Shown here: positions 1 through 23,834 of the stretch, in pieces
Numbering within the stretch: the first letter of the stretch is position 1
Layout of the letters: every line of letters starts with the position of its first letter
Assembly: GCA_046861385.1 (NCBI GenBank)
Contig: JBHHTW010000022.1
Span: forward strand, 1-38,827
Length of the DNA: 38,827 bases
Direction: 5' to 3'
Origin: Fidelibacterota bacterium
GTDB lineage: Bacteria > Fidelibacterota > Marinisomatia > Marinisomatales > TCS55
Position numbers and translations under genes: made by a program
Notes under the pieces: model-generated
The model's database searches: none
The model's input: only the letters and a program-made list of their open reading frames with translations
Told to the model about the DNA's origin: nothing

Positions 1-191
1 GTATTATTATAATCATCCAAATGGCAGCTATTGCATCCCGTCGTAATACCCTCATGGGAAAAAACAGCACCTTCCCAAGTAACAAATGAGCTATGACAAT
101 CTTCACAAGTTGTTGCAAAATTTAAATCAATATGATTGGGATCAGTTGTATTGTTGTAATCATCCATATGGCAGCTATTGCATCCCGTCGT
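1..191. repeat. 147-bp-period direct repeat encoding a duplicated 49-aa di-heme module
   Basis: gtattattataatcatccaaatggcagctattgcatcccgtcgt (1-44) versus gtattgttgtaatcatccatatggcagctattgcatcccgtcgt (148-191). These translate to GITTGCNSCHLDDYNN and GITTGCNSCHMDDYNN. Confidence 0.85.
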
Positions 192-1943
192 GATTCCCGT
201 GTGAGCAAATGTGGCTCCTACCCAAGTCGTTGTGGAGGAGTGACAATTTTCGCAAGTGGTCGTAAACCCCAGTGTTTCATCATGAACCGGGTTCAATGCG
301 TCGTGATAGTTCGTCAAATGGCATGTTGCACATGCCAAGGATAATTGATGGCTGAATATAATTGGTATCCATCCAGATTCATTGTGGCATTTATCACAAT
401 ATTCCAAAGGATATCCATAATCAGTATGGTTCGGATCTGTGGTGCTCTCGTAGGAAGATAAATGACACCCGGAACTCTCACAATTGACTGATAAACCATT
501 ATACACATTGTCTACATGGCAAAGTTGACAATCAACTGGCACATGTAGACCATGAAGAACAAAACCGGTTTGGGTAACTGAATGTGTAAAGGAATTGTCC
601 TTCCAATCTTCAGTGGAATGGCAGACTTGGCAATCGGAGCTAATATTATTATTCCCGTGAGGAGGATATGCAGATGTTTCATACTCCGGAGAATGGCATT
701 GAATGCACGATTCACTGCTGAATGATGTATGGGAAAAAATAGATTGCTGCCAGGAAACTGTAGTATGACATGCCTCACAGAAATCAGCGATATTATGAGA
801 ACCATGGTCATAAGAAGATATAGTGTAATTTGTCTGAGCTAATCCAGTAGATATATGGCACCCGGCACATGTCAAGGGTAAATCATAATTTCCAGCCGTT
901 CCATGGCATTGTTCGCAATCCGTAGTGATATGGCTTCCGGTTAATGGGAATGCAGTCAAATCATGATTAACTTCGGCTCCAAGCCACTCTATGGTTGTAT
1001 GGCAAATCTCACAATCTTGATTAAAGTTTTTCTCATTATGATTTGGTGCGTTGGGGAATTGACTTAATCCGGTCGCTTCGTAATCCTGTTGGTGGCATGA
1101 CCAACAATCGTCCTGAGTTCCCTGGAATACCCCGGAATGACACCCAGAGCATTCCGCGCCGAAGTGAGCACCCGTCAAAGGCCATTGTGTTCGTATATTG
1201 TGATCAAATGTAGATGGAAACCAGGAGGAGCGGTTGAGTTCGTGGCATTCCTGGCAGTCCGTGCTGATCCTTGCCTGAAAATGAGATGGGTTTTCTGCAT
1301 TGTTATACACATTTATATGACAGCTATAACAATCAGATGGCGTTACATCAAAACGTGTCAAATCATCATGGCAGAAACGGCAATCTACAGAACGATGAGC
1401 GCCCATGAGGGAAAAACGTGTTTCTTCATGATCATATATTCTCTGTTCTACTATCCAGGTATTTGATGTATGGCACCCACTGCATTGATCTCCTAATTGG
1501 CTTTTGTGAATATCCAGATGGCACGAATTACAGGAAGCCGAAATATGACTAAATCTATGTTTTTCGCCAAGGGTAGCCCCTTTATGACAATTAGAACAAT
1601 TGGCAATCGTATGGACACCTTCCAGTTTAAATGCCGTTTTACTATGATCGAAATTGCTTAACTCAAGCTTATCCCATCCGCCTGTTCCGTGGCAATCGCT
1701 GCACTCATAACCTGGGACGGCCAACTCCTGCCCATGTAGTAGTGTTAGTAACATTATTGTAAATATTATTCCAACGGTAGTTAGTTTTAAAATATTATTG
1801 TCATTGCCTGCCCGCCTCTTATCACTTATTAAAAAGGTGGCAGGCGGGCAATCTTCTTCTATAAGCAAATCCAAGGAGATCACTTTGTCGCAAGCTCCTC
1901 GTGATGACATATTTAGAATTACTGATGAATACTTTTGATTCAT
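1..1943 (-). CDS. Giant multiheme cytochrome c (at least 23 heme motifs), 3' end truncated by the window edge
   Basis: Hand translation of the minus strand gives one open frame from ATG 1943 to position 1, about 647 codons; it is not in the ORF track. It reads MNQKYSSVILN...ILKLTTVGIIFTIMLLTLLHGQELAVPGYECSDCH, with a hydrophobic signal-like segment. I count 22 CxxCH (e.g. CSDCH, CSNCH, CRFCH, CWSCH, CEICH, CNSCH) plus one CX4CH (CESSGCH). Repeated 'FDH..T.F.L.G.H...C..CH' modules match the upstream cytochrome. The start is uncertain (in-frame ATGs at 1943 and 1910). Confidence 0.93.
   Translation of the reverse strand, partial: MNQKYSSVILNMSSRGACDKVISLDLLIEEDCPPATFLISDKRRAGNDNNILKLTTVGIIFTIMLLTLLHGQELAVPGYECSDCHGTGGWDKLELSNFDHSKTAFKLEGVHTIANCSNCHKGATLGEKHRFSHISASCNSCHLDIHKSQLGDQCSGCHTSNTWIVEQRIYDHEETRFSLMGAHRSVDCRFCHDDLTRFDVTPSDCYSCHINVYNNAENPSHFQARISTDCQECHELNRSSWFPSTFDHNIRTQWPLTGAHFGAECSGCHSGVFQGTQDDCWSCHQQDYEATGLSQFPNAPNHNEKNFNQDCEICHTTIEWLGAEVNHDLTAFPLTGSHITTDCEQCHGTAGNYDLPLTCAGCHISTGLAQTNYTISSYDHGSHNIADFCEACHTTVSWQQSIFSHTSFSSESCIQCHSPEYETSAYPPHGNNNISSDCQVCHSTEDWKDNSFTHSVTQTGFVLHGLHVPVDCQLCHVDNVYNGLSVNCESSGCHLSSYESTTDPNHTDYGYPLEYCDKCHNESGWIPIIFSHQLSLACATCHLTNYHDALNPVHDETLGFTTTCENCHSSTTTWVGATFAHTGITTGCNSCHMDDYNNTTDPNHIDLNFATTCEDCHSSFVTWEGAVFSHEGITTGCNSCHLDDYNN
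1799..1909. repeat. 111-bp palindromic REP/RPE-like element
   Basis: Terminal inverted repeat tgtcattgc (1799-1807) / gtgatgaca (1901-1909). Internal hairpins attgcctgcccgcc..ggcaggcgggcaat (1803-1852) and atcac..gtgat. The layout matches the GTCATTGC..GCAATC..GAGATTGC..CTCGCAATGAC class of short palindromic repeats. Confidence 0.7.
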
Positions 1944-1984
1944 ATAATTTTCATATTACTATATTTGTAATCGATGAGTTTCAT

Positions 1985-3406
1985 CTACCTGATTTCTTCA
2001 GTAAATGTATGGCAGTCACTACACTGACGGGGTGTTGGAATATATCTGGTAAATAGTCCGTTTATATCTTTTTCTGATTTATGGCATTCATTGCACTTCA
2101 CATCTTGATGTCGGCCATCCAGTGGAAAAGAGGATTTTTGATGATCAAATTTTGTAAGGGTAAACAAATCATTTGTATGACAGGATTCACAGGCGTTATC
2201 AAAATTTTTCATAAATTGATTTCGATGCACATCCTCATGACAGACATTACATGAATACCTCGTCCACGTAAAGCGTGTTGTTGTAATCCCTGGTTTGGGT
2301 TGGTAAGGTTCGTGGCATTTATTGCAAGGGACGGCCAGATGCGAACCATCTAATTGTAACCGGGCCAATTGATGCATTGATGTGGTAAAAGATGATGGAA
2401 TAAAACCATTCACATTATGACATGGTGTGCAATCACCGCCATCTTCCCGTCTCGTAAATTGGTTATAATGTTTGTCCTCGTGGCATCGATCACAGCGATC
2501 ATATTCTGGCAACCGGCTTACTTCAGTTTTCTGGTGGCATTCATTGCATTTCACATTGGAATGTTTCCCATTTAAAGGATACTTTGTTTGACCATGATCA
2601 AAGGGTTTTAGATCTTCTTTCCAGTCTACAGTTGTATGACATGTTTCACATGTGGCTCCAAAAGTTCCTTTATGAAAATCTTCGTGACAACTAGTGCAGT
2701 TTTCAAAAGCGAGACCCGTTAACTGCCACACCTGATTCGGGCGATCTTCTTGAGCTGGGTGACATTTAATACAATCAACTTTCTGATGAGCACCGGTTAA
2801 GAGAAACTTTGCCCGGGTATGATCGAAATCATTGATAGCAAGGTTCCAATCTGAAGTGTTATGGCAGGATACACAATTATTAGAGACCTGATTCTGATGG
2901 ATATTCTCATGACAGCTATGACATGTCTCTTCCAACCCGAGAAATGTTCTGCCCAATACATTATGCTGAGGTCGGTCACTGGCCCAATTAATAATAGAGT
3001 GTCCTTTAATATTTTCACTCGTATGGCATTTATTGCACTCTAGTTCCTGATGTTTGCCTGTTAAAACATATCCTGTTTCTTCATGATCGAATTGTTTGAT
3101 ATCCTTTGGCCAATAGACCAATTCAAAGTCTTTACCATTATGGTCAGAGTGACACTCACCGCACTCGTTTAGTTTATCTCTATGGTAACCTTTCTTGGCA
3201 TCGAGTCTTTCTTTTAACGGTGAATGACAATCTACACACCCGGTTGACAATTCCTTTTTTCTTAATTCATGGCATTGAGTGCAGTTGGTGTTTCCTTCAA
3301 GATGAGCATGGTATTTAGAGAGCGGTCCCGGGGAAAATTGGGCAAAAATCAATCCAGTATTAATGAAGACCCAAAAGAGAATATTATAAGAAACTTTTCT
3401 ACCCAT
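1985..3406 (-). CDS. Periplasmic multiheme cytochrome c, 17 CxxCH motifs
   Basis: N-terminal signal peptide (…GLIFA-QFSPG). 17 CxxCH counted from CTQCH to CSDCH, with repeated FDH..T.F/YPL.G.H linkers that could supply distal His ligands. Confidence 0.95.
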   Translation of the reverse strand: MGRKVSYNILFWVFINTGLIFAQFSPGPLSKYHAHLEGNTNCTQCHELRKKELSTGCVDCHSPLKERLDAKKGYHRDKLNECGECHSDHNGKDFELVYWPKDIKQFDHEETGYVLTGKHQELECNKCHTSENIKGHSIINWASDRPQHNVLGRTFLGLEETCHSCHENIHQNQVSNNCVSCHNTSDWNLAINDFDHTRAKFLLTGAHQKVDCIKCHPAQEDRPNQVWQLTGLAFENCTSCHEDFHKGTFGATCETCHTTVDWKEDLKPFDHGQTKYPLNGKHSNVKCNECHQKTEVSRLPEYDRCDRCHEDKHYNQFTRREDGGDCTPCHNVNGFIPSSFTTSMHQLARLQLDGSHLAVPCNKCHEPYQPKPGITTTRFTWTRYSCNVCHEDVHRNQFMKNFDNACESCHTNDLFTLTKFDHQKSSFPLDGRHQDVKCNECHKSEKDINGLFTRYIPTPRQCSDCHTFTEEIR

Positions 3407-4256
3407 AGCTTTCGTTTTTTATATCTTCCTTATCTATGCCTAATGTAATTAAATCTGTTAATACAGATTCTAAAAATCTGGGGGGAGGAGTTAATTCTTT
3501 TTCTTTTGCTGCTCTTTTTTCATAAATAGAATTTCCGGGTCCACAAACATAAATGGTTCTATTTTCTTCCGGAAGAATCTCATTAATCATCTCTAAATCT
3601 ACTCGTCTATTGTAACATTTTACCGGTAACCCTGACTTCGGTTTTCTTGTAAAGGCAAATACAATATCCAAATGATCAGGAAAGTCCTTTTGCAGTTGGA
3701 GAAGCTCATTTCCGAAAATGGTGTCTGACCAATTTCGATTACTATAAAGCAATTTATGTTTTATATCGGGATAATTGCGAAGCGCATATTTAATAATACT
3801 GTAATTGGGCACAATTCCACTTCCGGCGCAAATATGGACCAATGTTTCCTCCACCGGTTCTTTTAAAACATAAGGACCTGTGAACCCGGTAATGACCATT
3901 CTGGTTCCCCGGGGAGTCCTTTTGGCTAAAATGGGAGACAGTAGTGGAGGATACTTTGTTTTTCCCGAAATATAACGCTCTTCTTTTATCGTAACTGCCA
4001 AATATTTCTCGTCCGGTGCGCTCGAAAGTGAGTAGGCCCGTGGTTTTTCCCTTTTCCCTTTCTTATCTTCTAAATATTTTGTCCATCGTTCCAAGGCTTC
4101 AAATTGATGTGGATCAATGGTTAAAAAATGCCCTGGTTCATATGCCAGTAAATCATTGCCTGTAAATAGAATTAAGGTGGTTGTTTCATCCGTATTGATA
4201 ATCACTTCGGCCACCATCACTTCAAGTTGTTTTATTTTTTTGCGAATATCATTCAT
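3399..4256 (-). CDS. FNR-family FAD/NAD(P)-binding oxidoreductase
   Basis: RAYSLSS (RxYS flavin motif), AGSGIVP (NAD(P)-binding loop), YVCGP and terminal ESYG. No Fe-S cysteine motif and no signal peptide. Confidence 0.88.
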   Translation of the reverse strand: MNDIRKKIKQLEVMVAEVIINTDETTTLILFTGNDLLAYEPGHFLTIDPHQFEALERWTKYLEDKKGKREKPRAYSLSSAPDEKYLAVTIKEERYISGKTKYPPLLSPILAKRTPRGTRMVITGFTGPYVLKEPVEETLVHICAGSGIVPNYSIIKYALRNYPDIKHKLLYSNRNWSDTIFGNELLQLQKDFPDHLDIVFAFTRKPKSGLPVKCYNRRVDLEMINEILPEENRTIYVCGPGNSIYEKRAAKEKELTPPPRFLESVLTDLITLGIDKEDIKNESYG

Positions 4257-4264
4257 GTGTTGTT

Positions 4265-5578
4265 CTATGCTTTAGATTCTATTTTTTTCCCAAATTCAAT
4301 TCCGATTGAATTCAACAGCGGGAATGGTAATTCTCCACCGGCAAAAATAAAAACATAATTATTTTCAATATCTATTTCGGAATCACGTGTCTTCAGTGTG
4401 ACGGAATCTTGTTCAATTTTTACAGGGTTGGAGTTGAATACTACTCTTAATAATTTTTCTGAAATCGCTTTTTCAATTTGAGCCTCATTCCGAGCTTTTA
4501 ACCTGAAGAAATTTTCCTTTCGATAGGAAATGGTTACTTCATTGCCTTCCTGATGGGCCAAACCAATCGCAGCTTCAATGGCACTATCTCCTCCGCCAAT
4601 CACCATTAATTTCCTATTCTTGTAGGTTTCAGCATCCAATAATTTATACATCACTTTACTCATATTTTCACCCGGTACTCCCAATTTTCTGGGGGTACCT
4701 CTCCTCCCCAGAGCCAATATGACGTTTGATGCAGAAACTGGATCAGATGAAGTATTAACAGTGAAATTTCCAAACTCACCGGTTACACCCAATAGCTTAT
4801 GCCCGGTTAATAATCTGATTTTTTGCTCGCTTATTACTTTTTCCCAAATTTCTAACAATTCTTCCTTTTGATATTCTCCTTTTTTTAAAGAACCAAATAA
4901 GGGCAATTCCACCGGTTGTACCAGCACCAATTTTCTTCGGGGATACTGGAGGATGGTTCCGCCAGGCTGGTCCTGATCCAATATTAAATAATTTAAACCC
5001 AATTCTTTTGCTCTAAGACCGGCAGATAAACCTGCAGGGCCGGCTCCGATAATCACAACATCAAATTCAGCTTTTGAACTTGTTGATTTATTTTTATGAA
5101 TATGGTCCATGGCAGTGACACCATGGCTAATCGCATTTTTAATCAATGCTAAACCGCTCAATTCCCCAATGATATATAGGCCGGATATATTGGTTTCAAA
5201 ATGCTTTGACAACTGCGGGATATCCTCTCTTTGACTAATGTCTCCCAACCCGACTTCGATGGCTCCCACCGGACAATTTTCCGCACATTTTGCGTGCCCC
5301 ACACAATGACTTCCATGTATAATTGTTGCTTTTCCTTCAATGAGCCCCAACACGACCCCTTCTGGGCAAGAATCCACACAGATTCCGCATCCAATACATA
5401 ATGAGCGATTAATAATGGGGTGTTGTAATAATGCTTTATCTTGTCTTTTTGCCCTCGTTTCTTCCAACCGTTTTTTGGTTTGAACTTCTTTTTTCTTCAT
5501 ATTTCGAATATAGGGCACCAGAAACAAAAGAATGATTAAAAGACCGATCCCCCAGCTGATTAATTGTTCATTGCCCAT
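4265..5578 (-). CDS. Membrane-anchored 2x[4Fe-4S] ferredoxin / TrxR-fold NAD(P)H flavoprotein fusion
   Basis: N-terminal TM helix (ISWGIGLLIILLFLVPY). Ferredoxin motifs CIGCGICVDSCP and CVGHAKCAENCP. FAD motif IIGAGPAG and NAD(P)H motif GGGDSAIEAA. No redox-active CxxC. Confidence 0.88.
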   Translation of the reverse strand: MGNEQLISWGIGLLIILLFLVPYIRNMKKKEVQTKKRLEETRAKRQDKALLQHPIINRSLCIGCGICVDSCPEGVVLGLIEGKATIIHGSHCVGHAKCAENCPVGAIEVGLGDISQREDIPQLSKHFETNISGLYIIGELSGLALIKNAISHGVTAMDHIHKNKSTSSKAEFDVVIIGAGPAGLSAGLRAKELGLNYLILDQDQPGGTILQYPRRKLVLVQPVELPLFGSLKKGEYQKEELLEIWEKVISEQKIRLLTGHKLLGVTGEFGNFTVNTSSDPVSASNVILALGRRGTPRKLGVPGENMSKVMYKLLDAETYKNRKLMVIGGGDSAIEAAIGLAHQEGNEVTISYRKENFFRLKARNEAQIEKAISEKLLRVVFNSNPVKIEQDSVTLKTRDSEIDIENNYVFIFAGGELPFPLLNSIGIEFGKKIESKA

Positions 5579-6450
5579 CAGAAAACCCAGGTATAACCCA
5601 GTGAAACAGCAACTGTAATATGAACAAACATAATCACAATCATGGTATAGGCGAACGGTTTATGAATCACATGCCAGTAGTGAAATAAACTTTGAGCTGC
5701 ATGCCAAAAAGCAATTTGGCGATCCATTTTAACAATCTGTTTCAATGAATGTTTAAATTGTTTCATTTCTTTTCGGGAGATAGATGACGATTTGGATATT
5801 TCTGTTTTAATTTTTTGCCATTTGAACCCGAAAGATATATCCATGAAGAAAATCGTGAATATACCCAGTAAACCCCGTTTTTTAATTTTATCCGCGCCGG
5901 ACAATTCCCGGATTCTTTCCACAGTACTATCAGATATATCAAATTCTTTCTTAAACTGATCTGTCCGTATTTGTAATTTTTCTTTAAAATCTTCCCGGGT
6001 TATTTCCTTCCCGCTCACGCGATGGGGTATTTTAATATAGATATACCTTCCAATAAATCCGCTTAATGCAACCGCCACCATTGACCAATAGGATATGGAG
6101 ACGAGACCTCCAAATTTAATGGCTGTGTGAAACGTAACCAGAATCGGTCCGGCAATCCCTAAAAAAATATGGTAATTCAGCCAAGTCGGCAATTTGCCCC
6201 ATTTTCGAAAAAACTTTACCCGTTTTCTGATGGAATAAATAAACATCAGCAGCATCATGCCTCCGCCCACAATACCCAAGCCATGCCCGAACGTACCACC
6301 CGGTTTCCACAATTTGTGTATCAGTTTAATATGCGGCCGCTCTGCAAGAGGAGATAAATAGTAAGGGCCAATATTTATGATTATCCATGCAGAGATAATT
6401 ACCAACAAAAATGTGGTTATGGTTAATATTATTTTATGAATTTTATTCAT
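5578..6450 (-). CDS. Integral membrane protein, putative di-heme cytochrome b (ferric-reductase-like TM domain)
   Basis: Several hydrophobic helices and two His pairs each 14 residues apart (H94/H108 in WLNYHIFLG…TFH; H263/H277 in VIHKPF…VH). Its stop overlaps the next ATG (TGATG at 5580-5576). Confidence 0.72.
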   Translation of the reverse strand: MNKIHKIILTITTFLLVIISAWIIINIGPYYLSPLAERPHIKLIHKLWKPGGTFGHGLGIVGGGMMLLMFIYSIRKRVKFFRKWGKLPTWLNYHIFLGIAGPILVTFHTAIKFGGLVSISYWSMVAVALSGFIGRYIYIKIPHRVSGKEITREDFKEKLQIRTDQFKKEFDISDSTVERIRELSGADKIKKRGLLGIFTIFFMDISFGFKWQKIKTEISKSSSISRKEMKQFKHSLKQIVKMDRQIAFWHAAQSLFHYWHVIHKPFAYTMIVIMFVHITVAVSLGYTWVF

Positions 6451-6573
6451 TAAAGGAAAATCCCGAATTGTAATTTAAATAATTACGACTATTACCTCTT
6501 ATTATTTGTTAACTCTATTATTTATATGCGATTACAATTGTGATTGATTAAACATTTTTCGTTAATTTTACCA

Positions 6574-7011
6574 ATGGATATACCCATACACCCGATACTG
6601 GTTCATTTTCCAATAGCATTAATTACTTCTGCATTTTTCTTTCAAGCACTGTATGTATGGAAACTCCCATTAATTTGCCGAACAATGAGTATGTGGCTTT
6701 TGGGATTAGGCGCACTATTAAGCATACCTGCGACAGTATCCGGGCAGGAGGAGGCTGTATATGTAGGCCAATTCGGATTAGAAACGATTGTATTAGAAAC
6801 AATCCAACTTCATGAATTAATGGCAAATTTAGCGACGTGGGGGAGCTTGATTACAGTGCTGGCTTGGGTTTATTTCTTTTTAAATAATCCCCATGATGAT
6901 AGAATAGATCGCTTGGCGCTTGCCTTTTTAGGTTTGCTGACAGGGTTCGTAATTTTTACCGGGTATTTGGGAGGACTTTTATCTCACGGTCATGGTGTTG
7001 GTATGCCTTAA
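6574..7011 (+). CDS. DUF2231-family membrane protein
   Basis: HPILVHFPIAL signature, 4 hydrophobic segments, C-terminal GYLGGLL..HGVG. ATG 6574 preferred over TTG 6544. Confidence 0.8.
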   Translation: MDIPIHPILVHFPIALITSAFFFQALYVWKLPLICRTMSMWLLGLGALLSIPATVSGQEEAVYVGQFGLETIVLETIQLHELMANLATWGSLITVLAWVYFFLNNPHDDRIDRLALAFLGLLTGFVIFTGYLGGLLSHGHGVGMP

Positions 7012-21993: not shown

Positions 21994-23316
21994 ATGAAAA
22001 AATCGAAATTCAACAAATACTACGCAGAAAAACTTGCGAAATTCAGTCAAAATAGACTGTTTCAGAGTCTTGATCCCCCATTACAGGATTTCATTAGAGA
22101 AACAGGAGAAAAGTACCGTCTCACCTTTCAGGAATTGCAGCAGGTTACAGAAATTGCCGTCGATTTGAATATGTGGGAGGAGCCGTCTATTATAAAACAA
22201 TGGAATCATTTCGAGTTATTACTTTCAAACAATAATGGTCGGAAAAAGGAAAACATTTTAATAAACTTAAAAAAGCATTGGCTGTCTTTAAAAGCTAAAG
22301 AATCTGTCTATAATATCAATGGACCTAATGTTAAAAGTGTCGTTAGAAAGGTTAAAGAGAATACCGGTAAAAATGATGTGTTTGGTTTATGCCCAGTGGC
22401 TTCAGAAAAGACAGTTTGTTGTAATCTCTATACCATTGATGCAGTGCAGGGGTGTGGATTGGGATGCAGCTATTGCAGCATTCAGACATTTTATGAAGAC
22501 GGCGCTATCGGAATCGAAAAAAACCTTTCCGAAAAGCTGAACCAAATTCTATTGGATCCAGATAAGAATTATCATATTGGTTCGGGTCAGTCATCCGATT
22601 CCCTCGCCATGGGGAATCGAAACGGTATTTTGGAAGCCCAATTGGAATTTGCCGAGAAACATCCGAATATTATTCTCGAATTCAAGACAAAAACCAAAAA
22701 TGTTGATTATTTTCTATCACATAATATTCCAAAAAATATTTTTGTTTGCTGGTCGGTGAATCCACAAATCATTATTAATAATGAAGAGCATTTTACTGCT
22801 TCATTGGCACAAAGAATCAGTGCTGCCAGGCAATTGGCCAATGCAGGAATTATTGTAGGCTTCCATTTTCATCCAATCGTATGTTATGAAGGGTGGGATG
22901 CGGAGTATAGAAATATTGTTCAAACACTTCTTAGGACATTTTCACCAAATGAAATTGGAATGATTTCCATGGGGACGTTGACCTTTATCAAACCGGCTAT
23001 TAAAAATTTAAGAGCATTGGGTATTAAAAGTAAAATTCTTCAAATACAATTCAAGGATGCTTCAGGAAAATATTCATATTCGCGGGAGATTAAAGAAAAA
23101 ATATTCGGTACCGTTTGGGAAGCATTCAAACCCTGGCATGACAAAGTATTTTTCTATCTTTGCATGGAGGAGCGGGAATTATGGAAATCGGTTATGGGGA
23201 GGAGCTATGACTCTAATAATGAATTTGAAGATGCTTTATTTTCCAGTGTGTCCGGAAAAATGGAATCGCTAAAGAGAAATAATTTATTAAAAACTGCTCC
23301 AATACGCCCTGTTTAA
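21994..23316 (+). CDS. Spore photoproduct lyase-like radical SAM protein with N-terminal extension
   Basis: GCGLGCSYC (CxxxCxxC), GSGQSSDSL, LEFKTK, WSVNP…E and FYLCME are SplB-family motifs. About 130 extra N-terminal residues. Confidence 0.82.
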   Translation: MKKSKFNKYYAEKLAKFSQNRLFQSLDPPLQDFIRETGEKYRLTFQELQQVTEIAVDLNMWEEPSIIKQWNHFELLLSNNNGRKKENILINLKKHWLSLKAKESVYNINGPNVKSVVRKVKENTGKNDVFGLCPVASEKTVCCNLYTIDAVQGCGLGCSYCSIQTFYEDGAIGIEKNLSEKLNQILLDPDKNYHIGSGQSSDSLAMGNRNGILEAQLEFAEKHPNIILEFKTKTKNVDYFLSHNIPKNIFVCWSVNPQIIINNEEHFTASLAQRISAARQLANAGIIVGFHFHPIVCYEGWDAEYRNIVQTLLRTFSPNEIGMISMGTLTFIKPAIKNLRALGIKSKILQIQFKDASGKYSYSREIKEKIFGTVWEAFKPWHDKVFFYLCMEERELWKSVMGRSYDSNNEFEDALFSSVSGKMESLKRNNLLKTAPIRPV

Positions 23317-23354: not shown

Positions 23355-23834
23355 TTAATCATCCTCATTATCATGGTCGCCATTATTTTCACCATTACCG
23401 TTATGCTCTAATTCTTCTCCAAATGTGGCGATTAATCCATTTATAAGTTTTTTCCTGTCACTTTTTGATAGTCTCTTGTCAAGTCGAGGGATATAATAGT
23501 ACCAGGGGGGCATGTCACTTTCACGTAATTCTCCGGCTGCTTCTTCCCCTTCGTTTTCTTTTTGAACACCCCACACAGACACATTGAAATGTTCTCGTCC
23601 ATCATTTACATCATGCTGGACTAACCATGAAAATGGTGCAACATGGCTGTACCAGGGCCAGTCAGTTTCATGACTGTGACAATCTTTGCAAGTCTGGTAA
23701 AATAATTCTCTAGTATCAGGGCTATCCCAATTTGGTTCAGAAACAACGGAAGGATTTTTGTGCTTCCGACCATAGGGGATTACCTGAATAATAACGAGTA
23801 CAAAGATGAGGTTTCTTATCATTTTCAATTTCAT
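23355..23834 (-). CDS. Haem-binding domain protein (monoheme cytochrome c)
   Basis: CKDCHS, WPWYSHVAPFSWL and MPP are Haem_bd-type motifs. N-terminal hydrophobic anchor. Confidence 0.85.
   Translation of the reverse strand: MKLKMIRNLIFVLVIIQVIPYGRKHKNPSVVSEPNWDSPDTRELFYQTCKDCHSHETDWPWYSHVAPFSWLVQHDVNDGREHFNVSVWGVQKENEGEEAAGELRESDMPPWYYYIPRLDKRLSKSDRKKLINGLIATFGEELEHNGNGENNGDHDNEDD

What the first reader, a model, noticed from the sequence alone, without database searches (positions are those of the whole stretch)
1..6450. Candidate NAD(P)H-coupled trans-envelope electron conduit with at least 40 c-type hemes
Seen: five co-oriented genes with overlapping or very short junctions (1-nt overlap at 5578, 8-nt gap, 8-nt overlap, 41-nt gap). 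In order they encode a His-pair membrane protein, a TM-anchored Fe-S/flavoprotein, an FNR-like flavoprotein, a 17-heme exported cytochrome and a cytochrome with at least 23 heme motifs. Known: characterised extracellular electron transfer routes (CymA-Mtr, ImcH/CbcL-Pcc) draw electrons from the quinone pool. Inference: here cytoplasmic pyridine-nucleotide flavoproteins connect through a cytochrome b directly to a multiheme wire. This would be a possibly quinone-independent route for electron export or uptake, and I do not recognise it as a characterised system.
Basis: partly seen in the sequence, partly recalled or inferred. Interest (0 to 1): 0.82.

Follow-up and report, generated by a model that had tools for sequence, protein, structure and literature searches.

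The report
NADPH-fed cytochrome wire across cell envelope
These genes most likely build a chain of haem proteins that carries electrons from the cell's NADPH pool across both membranes to the outside; the chain itself was predicted from sequence in 2017 but never tested, and its constant NADPH-type enzyme partner suggests it bypasses the usual quinone route.

Summary
Observation confirmed: five co-oriented genes and 40 haem-c motifs (39 CxxCH, one CX4CH). The host is probably Marinisomatota.

The missing parts exist. Relatives add an 8-10-haem cytochrome and a predicted 22-strand barrel, whose orthologue lies on another contig of this genome.

The architecture is not new. [quoted passage not shown] 2017), which are untested and were modelled as quinone-linked.

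What I did not find in print is the flavoprotein link. A membrane-anchored, circularly permuted TrxR-fold NADPH/Fe-S protein is present in 39 of 39 loci with at least 8 kb downstream, at three operon positions. A second subfamily uses an unrelated FNR/2Fe-2S reductase instead. The separate FNR gene is accessory (5 of 79 loci).

Best reading: a split NOX-like, outward NADPH-to-surface conduit that conserves no energy (about 0.6). Nothing is shown biochemically.

Caveat: here a 179-bp repeat interrupts the start of the large cytochrome gene. A complete cluster lies in cultured Emticicia oligotrophica. The scan reported this system before in about ten other genomes.

The parts
5578..6450 (-). 290-aa five-helix inner-membrane protein, predicted dihaem cytochrome b of ferric-reductase type (His pairs 94/108 and 263/277), with a ~125-aa cytoplasmic helical loop
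   Evidence: Hydropathy; invariant W90-H94-H108, S130-G131-G134, W259-H263-H277 in 45 homologues; AF2 pLDDT 89.9; K/R bias of loops 2 and 4
4265..5578 (-). 437-aa membrane-anchored flavoprotein: N-terminal TM, dicluster ferredoxin (one cluster with an invariant His ligand, H95), circularly permuted TrxR/Bdr-type FAD/NAD(P)H fold without CxxC; NADPH preference inferred from R353
   Evidence: Pfam; closest PDB sequence is Bdr/YpdA, E 2.6e-24; alignment of 44; residue counts
3399..4256 (-). 285-aa soluble FNR-like flavoprotein, accessory
   Evidence: Pfam NAD_binding_1; FNR / nitrate-reductase flavin-domain hits; 5 of 79 loci; 9 of 41 relatives, all among cluster carriers, 4 of them unlinked
1985..3406 (-). 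17-haem c-type cytochrome with Sec-type signal peptide (IFA|QF), c7-like repeats; predicted periplasm-spanning wire
   Evidence: 15-23 haems in full-length orthologues, usually 17 or 20
3..1943 (-). Large repeat multihaem cytochrome, at least 23 motifs, cut by the contig end (orthologue in a same-genus genome: 779 aa, 27 haems); mature N-terminus predicted at nt 1730; true start uncertain
1767..1945 (.). 179-bp palindromic repeat (REP/MITE-like) between two ATAT copies, inside the presumed signal-peptide region of the large cytochrome gene
   Evidence: blastn copies on 9 other contigs and hairpin fold; frames and ATAT spacing; present without a skipping joint in three runs of one sample, possibly the source

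Best explanation
A PCC3-type trans-envelope electron conduit with a split NOX/FRE-like entry module. Proposed path: NADPH -> FAD -> two Fe-S clusters of the membrane-anchored flavoprotein -> cytoplasmic-side haem b (H94/H263) -> periplasmic-side haem b (H108/H277) -> 17-haem periplasmic cytochrome -> large repeat cytochrome and/or 8-haem cytochrome threaded through a 22-strand outer-membrane barrel -> extracellular acceptor (metal oxide or chelate, humic quinone, oxidant or partner cell). Shown here: gene content, conservation, motifs and predicted folds. Inferred: cofactor binding, topology, contacts, NADPH specificity, direction, and which cytochrome plugs the barrel. Direction (inference): outward flow is downhill and aided by the membrane potential but dissipates it. 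The conduit would therefore serve redox disposal, assimilatory or detoxifying reduction rather than energy-conserving respiration. Inward flow to NADP+ would need a donor near or below about -450 mV.
For: (1) 39 of 39 GTDB loci with >=8 kb downstream (of 79 fetched) carry the flavoprotein, a barrel and >=30 CxxCH; 42 of 43 at >=6.5 kb. The loci span Marinisomatota, Calditrichota, KSB1, Ignavibacteria, Bacteroidia, Zixibacteria, Krumholzibacteria, Gemmatimonadota and Acidobacteriota. (2) The flavoprotein stays in the cluster through rearrangement: before the membrane gene in 20 loci, directly after in 24, further downstream in 17. (3) Genome-wide profiles in 41 relatives match: membrane protein 17, flavoprotein 16 (the missing one is a contig cut inside the membrane gene), strong barrel match in the same 17. 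(4) Non-orthologous replacement: of 25 metagenome loci fetched with a distant homologue, all 11 with >=1.2 kb upstream have an adjacent flavoprotein. Ten have a TM + FNR + 2Fe-2S type directly upstream (Pfam-confirmed for the 5 scanned), one has the Pyr_redox type. Proteobacterial plasmids carry FNR/2Fe-2S + membrane protein + 7-haem cytochrome cassettes; gnd/zwf lie beside one, gnd near another. (5) An 805-aa Atlas cluster (56 members, Pyr_redox 100%, Fer4 98%) aligns over 283 residues of the membrane protein, which suggests a natural fusion (automatic lead). (6) The catalytic domain is predicted cytoplasmic (0 vs 7.5 K/R around the TM), R353 is invariant in 44 of 44, and there is no CxxC. 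(7) AF2 gives a 22-strand barrel, pLDDT 87, with only outer-membrane barrels among the top Foldseek rows; the own-genome orthologue is 80% identical on contig C85. (8) Cytochrome c maturation genes are present.
Against: No biochemical or expression data. The best haem-protein fold match of the membrane protein is E. coli superoxide oxidase, recalled as quinone-linked. That match (Z 8.1, rmsd 3.2 A, 133 residues) is tied with generic helical bundles; Foldseek found nothing significant. He et al. modelled this protein type as quinone-active, and proteobacterial PCC3 is described as four genes with no flavoprotein. The profile HMMs used for counting were built from the same loci, and many loci are kin, so the counts are not independent trials. 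Orphans exist: L088 and L095 have the membrane gene without the cluster; L033 has membrane + flavoproteins but no cytochromes next. My own search for longer fused homologues found none among 133 candidates (weak by the tool's own note). In this genome the large cytochrome gene may be impaired by the insertion. Surface exposure of any cytochrome was not tested.
Confidence: 0.6

Rival explanations
1. Ordinary quinone-linked PCC3: the membrane cytochrome b exchanges electrons with the quinone pool. The flavoprotein is a separate NAD(P)H:quinone oxidoreductase (or an NADPH sink/source) co-regulated with the conduit, so electrons still pass through quinone.
For: Model of He et al. 2017; PCC3 described without flavoprotein; fold resemblance to cytochrome b561; host has complex I, a haem-copper oxidase and molybdoenzymes.
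Against: The partners in both subfamilies are ferredoxin:NADP-reductase-like folds with terminal Fe-S clusters, not NDH-2 types. A probable natural fusion exists. No quinone-site evidence was found, but none was searched for structurally.
Confidence: 0.22
2. Same wiring run inward: extracellular electrons (Fe(II) or sulfide minerals, metal, partner cells) reduce NAD(P)+ directly.
For: PCC3 was first noticed in Fe(II) oxidisers; the best-matching runs are from a hydrothermal-vent sample, possibly the source.
Against: Uphill for Fe(II) and against the membrane potential, with no ion-pumping subunit in the cluster (inference from gene content); PCC3 expression did not clearly track iron oxidation (passages).
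Confidence: 0.1
3. The electrons stay in the envelope: a periplasmic capacitor or reductant supply (oxidant defence, metal assimilation, repair), with the barrel acting as a secretion or anchoring pore rather than an electron conduit.
For: The 22-strand barrel is not an MtrB family member; barrel-less three-gene cassettes exist, two of them near metal-response genes; the cluster occurs in Emticicia, recalled as an aerobe.
Against: Barrel and 30-91 haem motifs per locus are kept in all 39 informative loci, far more than a periplasmic reductase needs.
Confidence: 0.08

Closest known systems
PCC3 putative porin-cytochrome c cluster (He et al. 2017, PMC5566968; Hoover et al. PMC10734462; bioRxiv 10.1101/2025.02.27.639646)
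   Same: ~300-aa five-helix inner-membrane protein with two WX3HX13H and SGxxG; periplasmic and very large repeat multihaem cytochromes at 22-39 aa per haem; beta-barrel (22 TM regions in the Leptothrix example); same order of these four genes; functionally unverified.
   Different: Reported in Proteobacteria as four genes with a quinone-linked model. Here it is in FCB-group and other phyla, with a conserved NADPH/Fe-S flavoprotein, often an extra 8-10-haem cytochrome and sometimes an FNR. Direct sequence homology to the Sideroxydans/Leptothrix proteins could not be tested.
Porin-less MHC + IMP + 'other redox protein' cassettes (He et al. 2017, Supplementary Table 6) and PCC4
   Same: The Bradyrhizobium-type cassette (7-haem 256-258 aa, IMP 234-235 aa, redox protein 608-702 aa) has the sizes of locus L111, whose IMP matches my profile at E 1.8e-23. 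So a neighbouring redox gene was noticed before.
   Different: The text and table I saw do not identify that gene as an NAD(P)H flavoprotein or propose it as the donor. PCC4 domain drawings (Supplementary Figure 4) were not available to me.
NOX / FRE / MsrQ ferric-reductase-domain systems (recalled; He et al. also note the FRD likeness)
   Same: Two haem-b His pairs across the membrane, fed from a cytoplasmic NAD(P)H flavin enzyme.
   Different: Five helices, only weak PF01794 matches, a separate flavoprotein of another fold with Fe-S clusters, and output into a multihaem c wire rather than O2, Fe chelate or MsrP.
MtrCAB/CymA and Geobacter Pcc/ImcH/CbcL (recalled; characterised)
   Same: Barrel plus multihaem cytochromes spanning the envelope.
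   Different: No NCBIfam family for 5 of 5 barrels scanned; the cytochromes score far below the DmsE/MtrA cut-off; no quinol dehydrogenase of NapC/CymA type in the cluster.
Bacillithiol disulfide reductase Bdr/YpdA and TrxR-type ferredoxin:NADP reductases
   Same: Closest solved relatives of the flavin part.
   Different: Below the family cut-off (164 vs 340 bits), circularly permuted, fused to a ferredoxin and a membrane anchor, no Cys outside the Fe-S domain.

Membership tests
PCC3 | Inner-membrane protein of about 300 aa with five TM helices | tested here: met
   290 aa, five hydrophobic segments, AF2 helices
PCC3 | WX3HX13H on TM3 and TM5, SGxxG on TM4 | tested here: met
   All invariant in 45 homologues; definition read
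PCC3 | Large periplasmic multihaem cytochrome (median 21 haems), 22-39 aa per haem | tested here: met
   17 haems, 27.8 aa per haem, signal peptide; mostly 17 or 20 in orthologues
PCC3 | Very large repeat multihaem cytochrome that is extracellular | tested here: inconclusive
   Size and repeats met (>=23 here, up to 49 in relatives); location not tested; start disturbed in this genome
PCC3 | Outer-membrane beta-barrel gene in the cluster | tested here: met
   22-strand model of the same-genus orthologue; 39 of 39 informative loci; own copy on contig C85, linkage inferred across an assembly gap
PCC3 | Sequence homology to the named Sideroxydans/Leptothrix PCC3 proteins | not testable with these tools
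   No such record could be reached; the supplement holds them only as pictures
NOX (NADPH oxidase) family | Ferric-reductase TM domain (PF01794) | tested here: inconclusive
   20 of 45 homologues match at E<=0.1, best 1e-5; the window protein does not
NOX (NADPH oxidase) family | FNR-type dehydrogenase domain fused to the TM domain (definition recalled) | tested here: not met
   Separate genes; core partner has a TrxR-type fold; FNR gene in 5 of 79 loci
MtrCAB/Mto/Pio conduit | MtrB/PioB barrel and DmsE/MtrA decahaem family membership | tested here: not met
   No NCBIfam hit for 5 barrels; TIGR03508 about 40 bits vs cut-off 192
Thioredoxin reductase / Bdr | Family cut-off and redox-active CxxC (TrxR) | tested here: not met
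   82 vs 343 bits (TrxR) and 164 vs 340 bits (YpdA); Cys only in the Fe-S domain
Any EET conduit | Measured electron transfer to or from an extracellular partner | not testable with these tools
   Needs experiment

The most novel reading that the evidence does not exclude
A widespread, quinone-independent class of bacterial extracellular electron transfer. A NOX-like dihaem membrane protein is fed directly by interchangeable membrane-anchored NAD(P)H/Fe-S flavoproteins and drains the cytoplasmic NADPH pool through a 30-90-haem wire to the cell surface. It would be present in about 30% of sampled Marinisomatota genomes (61 of 201) and many other phyla, and would recast the PCC3 entry point.
Probability: 0.45. 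Interest if true: 0.85.

Novelty: new variant of a known kind. Interest (0 to 1): 0.6.

Why it matters
The characterised multihaem conduits I know of (recalled) draw on the quinone pool. A direct NADPH-to-surface wire would be a different kind of EET: low-potential, not energy-conserving, and usable by aerobes and fermenters for redox disposal, metal reduction or feeding partners. It would give a testable function to the untested PCC3 clusters and to an abundant uncultured marine phylum. It would also be an attractive part for bioelectrochemistry, because it couples NADPH to electrodes. A complete copy with its own ccsA sits on a plasmid of a cultured type strain (Emticicia oligotrophica DSM 17448, EMTOL_RS21085-21110), so the question can be tested directly.

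Tried and rejected
Complex prediction, membrane protein + flavoprotein with haem and 4Fe-4S: no answer, score 0.03; this is no evidence either way.

Foldseek of the membrane protein: no significant match. VIA-align: best rows Z about 8, mostly generic helical bundles.

Search for fused longer homologues: two time-outs, then 0 of 133 candidates on residues 45-150, so the fusion rests on the Atlas row and on earlier scan notes. The 513-886-aa hits that I read looked like long N-terminal extensions or frameshifted read-throughs, and I did not count them as fusions.

Attempts to reach named proteobacterial PCC3 genes through plasmid records found only the small three-gene cassettes and Emticicia. 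Cluster look-up gave no taxa.

Sequencing runs: no RNA holder listed. Tandem Repeats Finder found nothing in 1-2100, although the protein repeat at the contig edge is visible. The hydrogenase family search gave no answer.

Rejected: MtrCAB/Pcc membership, thioredoxin reductase function, the FNR gene as a core subunit, and an assembly artefact as the origin of the cluster.

Literature: 8 searches showed no paper describing the flavoprotein-linked form. The library lacks most subscription papers. Supplementary Figure 4 and the body of Supplementary Table 4 of He et al., and the supplements of the 2026 peat preprint, could not be seen and may bear on this.
Full report
OBSERVATION. The window is the whole of contig C11, so the large cytochrome is cut by an assembly end that falls in an internal protein repeat. 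The closest named homologues of the membrane protein are Marinimicrobia/Neomarinimicrobiota, so the host is probably Marinisomatota. The best-matching runs are from one hydrothermal-vent sample that may be the source.

THE REST OF THE CLUSTER. In same-genus and same-order genomes the operon continues: large cytochrome (27 haems in G004), an 8-haem cytochrome, then a 510-570-aa protein ending in an aromatic residue. AlphaFold2 on 46 such proteins gives a small N-terminal beta domain and a 22-strand barrel (pLDDT 87). Foldseek returns ushers and porins at 7-12% identity, and no NCBIfam family matched the 5 barrels scanned. The orthologue in this genome starts mid-gene at the end of contig C85 (80% identity over 397 aa), so linkage across the gap is inferred, not shown.

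CONSERVATION. Of these, 39 had >=8 kb downstream. All 39 carry the Fe-S flavoprotein, a barrel and >=30 CxxCH (range 30-91, which can include unrelated cytochromes in the flank). At >=6.5 kb the figure is 42 of 43; the other 36 loci were too short and were left out of that count. Across all 79 the flavoprotein is seen in 61 (20 upstream of the membrane gene, 24 directly after, 17 further downstream). Of the 18 without it, 17 have under 4.2 kb downstream. L088 and L095 look like true orphans, and L033 lacks cytochromes next to the flavoproteins. The HMMs were built from these same loci and many loci are kin, so these are not independent trials. Whole-genome profiles in 41 relatives agree: 17 have the membrane protein, 16 of these the flavoprotein (the exception is cut at a contig end), and the same 17 a strong barrel match; one further genome has a weak 61-aa barrel fragment. 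In the phylum, 61 of 201 sampled genomes carry the membrane protein. The FNR-like gene is accessory: 5 of 79 loci, and 9 of 41 relatives, all of them cluster carriers but 4 unlinked.

MEMBRANE PROTEIN. It has five helices, and the K/R bias puts loops 2 and 4 in the cytoplasm. W90-H94-H108, S130-G131-G134 and W259-H263-H277 are invariant in 45 homologues, and the four His also in 28 distant ones. This places one His pair near each membrane face, as in dihaem cytochromes b (inference). Pfam support is weak: Ferric_reduct in 20 of 45 members at E<=0.1 and Ni_hydr_CYTB in 17. The best haem-protein fold match, E. coli superoxide oxidase (Z 8.1, 133 residues), does not stand above generic bundles.

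FLAVOPROTEIN. It has an N-terminal TM helix (44 of 47 orthologues by hydropathy) followed by a basic stretch, so the catalytic part is predicted cytoplasmic. The ferredoxin domain has C61/C67/C71/C92/C98/C102 and H95 invariant in 44 of 44; C64 is replaced in 19, which suggests a 3Fe-4S variant (inference). The flavin part is closest to Bdr/YpdA and TrxR-type ferredoxin:NADP reductases. The segment that ends those folds (the ETNxxGxYxxGE-like motif) lies before the first GxGxxG here, i.e. a circular permutation. There is no CxxC. An invariant Arg after the second Rossmann strand points to NADPH (motif meaning recalled).

INDEPENDENT SUPPORT FOR A PYRIDINE-NUCLEOTIDE LINK. A metagenome scan with a distant homologue gave 25 loci. 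All 11 with >=1.2 kb upstream have an adjacent flavoprotein. Ten have an unrelated TM + FNR + 2Fe-2S reductase directly upstream and one has the Pyr_redox type downstream; the longer ones continue into cytochromes with up to 45 haems, and two show a weak barrel match. Three proteobacterial plasmids carry FNR/2Fe-2S + membrane protein + 7-haem cytochrome; in Bradyrhizobium BTAi1 this follows gnd and zwf. The Atlas lists an 805-aa cluster with Pyr_redox and Fer4 that aligns over the whole membrane protein. My own search for long forms found none. The membrane protein family thus repeatedly pairs with an NAD(P)H flavin + Fe-S module of either fold.

MECHANISM. The best model is NADPH -> FAD -> Fe-S -> two b haems -> periplasmic wire -> barrel-threaded cytochrome -> outside (0.6). 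Moving electrons from the negative to the positive side dissipates membrane potential. So this would be redox disposal or reductive chemistry at the surface, not a coupling site; the reverse direction needs a very low-potential donor (inference). The host has complex I, a haem-copper oxidase, two molybdoenzymes, a membrane transhydrogenase and cytochrome c maturation genes, so it has both a quinone chain and an NADPH source. Rivals: quinone-mediated PCC3 (0.22), inward flow (0.1), periplasm-only function (0.08).

A LOCAL DEFECT. In 8 of 8 relatives the large cytochrome gene abuts or overlaps the preceding stop. Here 179 bp lie between two ATAT copies, most of it a palindromic repeat with copies on 9 other contigs. 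The ATGs at 1984 and 1954 stop after 14 and 4 codons, and the long frame opens from ATG 1943 through the element, giving 71 residues before the predicted mature Gln. The hydrophobic stretch and cleavage site are in frame, so export may survive, but this copy could be impaired. Three runs of one sample show the element and no joint that skips it.

COMPARISON WITH WHAT IS KNOWN. He et al. 2017 (PMC5566968; I read passages, sections 15 and 16, and the text of supplements 1, 5 and 7) define PCC3 as porin + extracellular MHC + periplasmic MHC + an inner-membrane protein with exactly the motifs above. They note the likeness to ferric reductase/NOX domains but propose quinone exchange. Their Table 6 lists porin-less cassettes with an unnamed 'other redox protein' of the size seen in L111. 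Hoover et al. (PMC10734462, passages) and the 2025 preprint (passages) treat PCC3 as four genes of untested function. A 2026 peat preprint (abstract and section 9) and a Verrucomicrobia paper (PMC5615132, passages) describe other or possibly related porin-MHC clusters; no flavoprotein input is mentioned in what I read. PMC7399161 and PMC11475568 (passages) added nothing on it. Eight searches found no description of the flavoprotein-linked form. It works like PCC3 and meets its testable defining features; direct homology to the named PCC3 proteins was not testable. It is not an Mtr/Pcc member and not a NOX by domain structure.

EARLIER SCAN NOTES. My reading was written down before I looked. 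Ten earlier findings on other genomes concern this kind of system and nine reach much the same reading. They are not independent evidence.

VERDICT. A real, widespread cluster. It is a new variant of a predicted, untested kind, with a well-supported but unproven NADPH entry that would matter if shown. Interest 0.6.

Noticed in passing
L108:8689-20487 (Emticicia oligotrophica DSM 17448 plasmid pEMTOL02): Complete cluster (ccsA, membrane protein, flavoprotein, 23- and 40-haem cytochromes, barrel) on a plasmid of a cultured strain; divergent genes encode a DUF5777 barrel, YceI, Rieske and c-type cytochrome.
   Followed up: partly
window 1767-1945; copies on G000 contigs C33, C53, C60, C74, C80, C83, C89, C95, C103: A family of palindromic intergenic repeats (REP/MITE-like) in this genome.
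   Followed up: partly
window 4265-5578: Circularly permuted TrxR-type fold with a His-ligated Fe-S motif; one cluster loses a Cys in 19 of 44 orthologues.
   Followed up: partly
L111:6490-15136, L109:5800-15278, L110:6007-9784: Three-gene FNR/2Fe-2S + membrane protein + 7-haem cytochrome cassettes on proteobacterial plasmids, near pentose-phosphate, heavy-metal or ccm genes; Bradyrhizobium pBBta01 has three copies of the membrane gene.
   Followed up: partly
window 23355-23834; L014:3208-3666; L024; L032: A mono-haem Haem_bd (PF14376) gene lies between the membrane and flavoprotein genes in L014, and similar-sized mono-haem ORFs follow the membrane gene in L024 and L032; a PF14376 gene lies 17 kb away in this window.
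   Followed up: no
window 6544-7011: Divergent DUF2231 membrane protein; a divergent ~146-aa ORF sits at the same place in several close relatives.
   Followed up: no
G000:C15:74794-84144: Another cluster of multihaem cytochromes (4, 5, 14, 4 haems) around a molybdopterin enzyme.
   Followed up: no
G000:C6:30905-42844: Five-haem cytochrome and a ~1200-aa molybdoenzyme; an earlier scan note calls this a nitrate reductase operon with alternative complex III.
   Followed up: partly
L061, L063, L098: Variant clusters: L061 splits the wire into seven cytochromes (91 motifs); L063 and L098 have two barrel genes.
   Followed up: no
window 21994-23316: Spore photoproduct lyase-family radical SAM gene in a probably deep-sea organism.
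   Followed up: no
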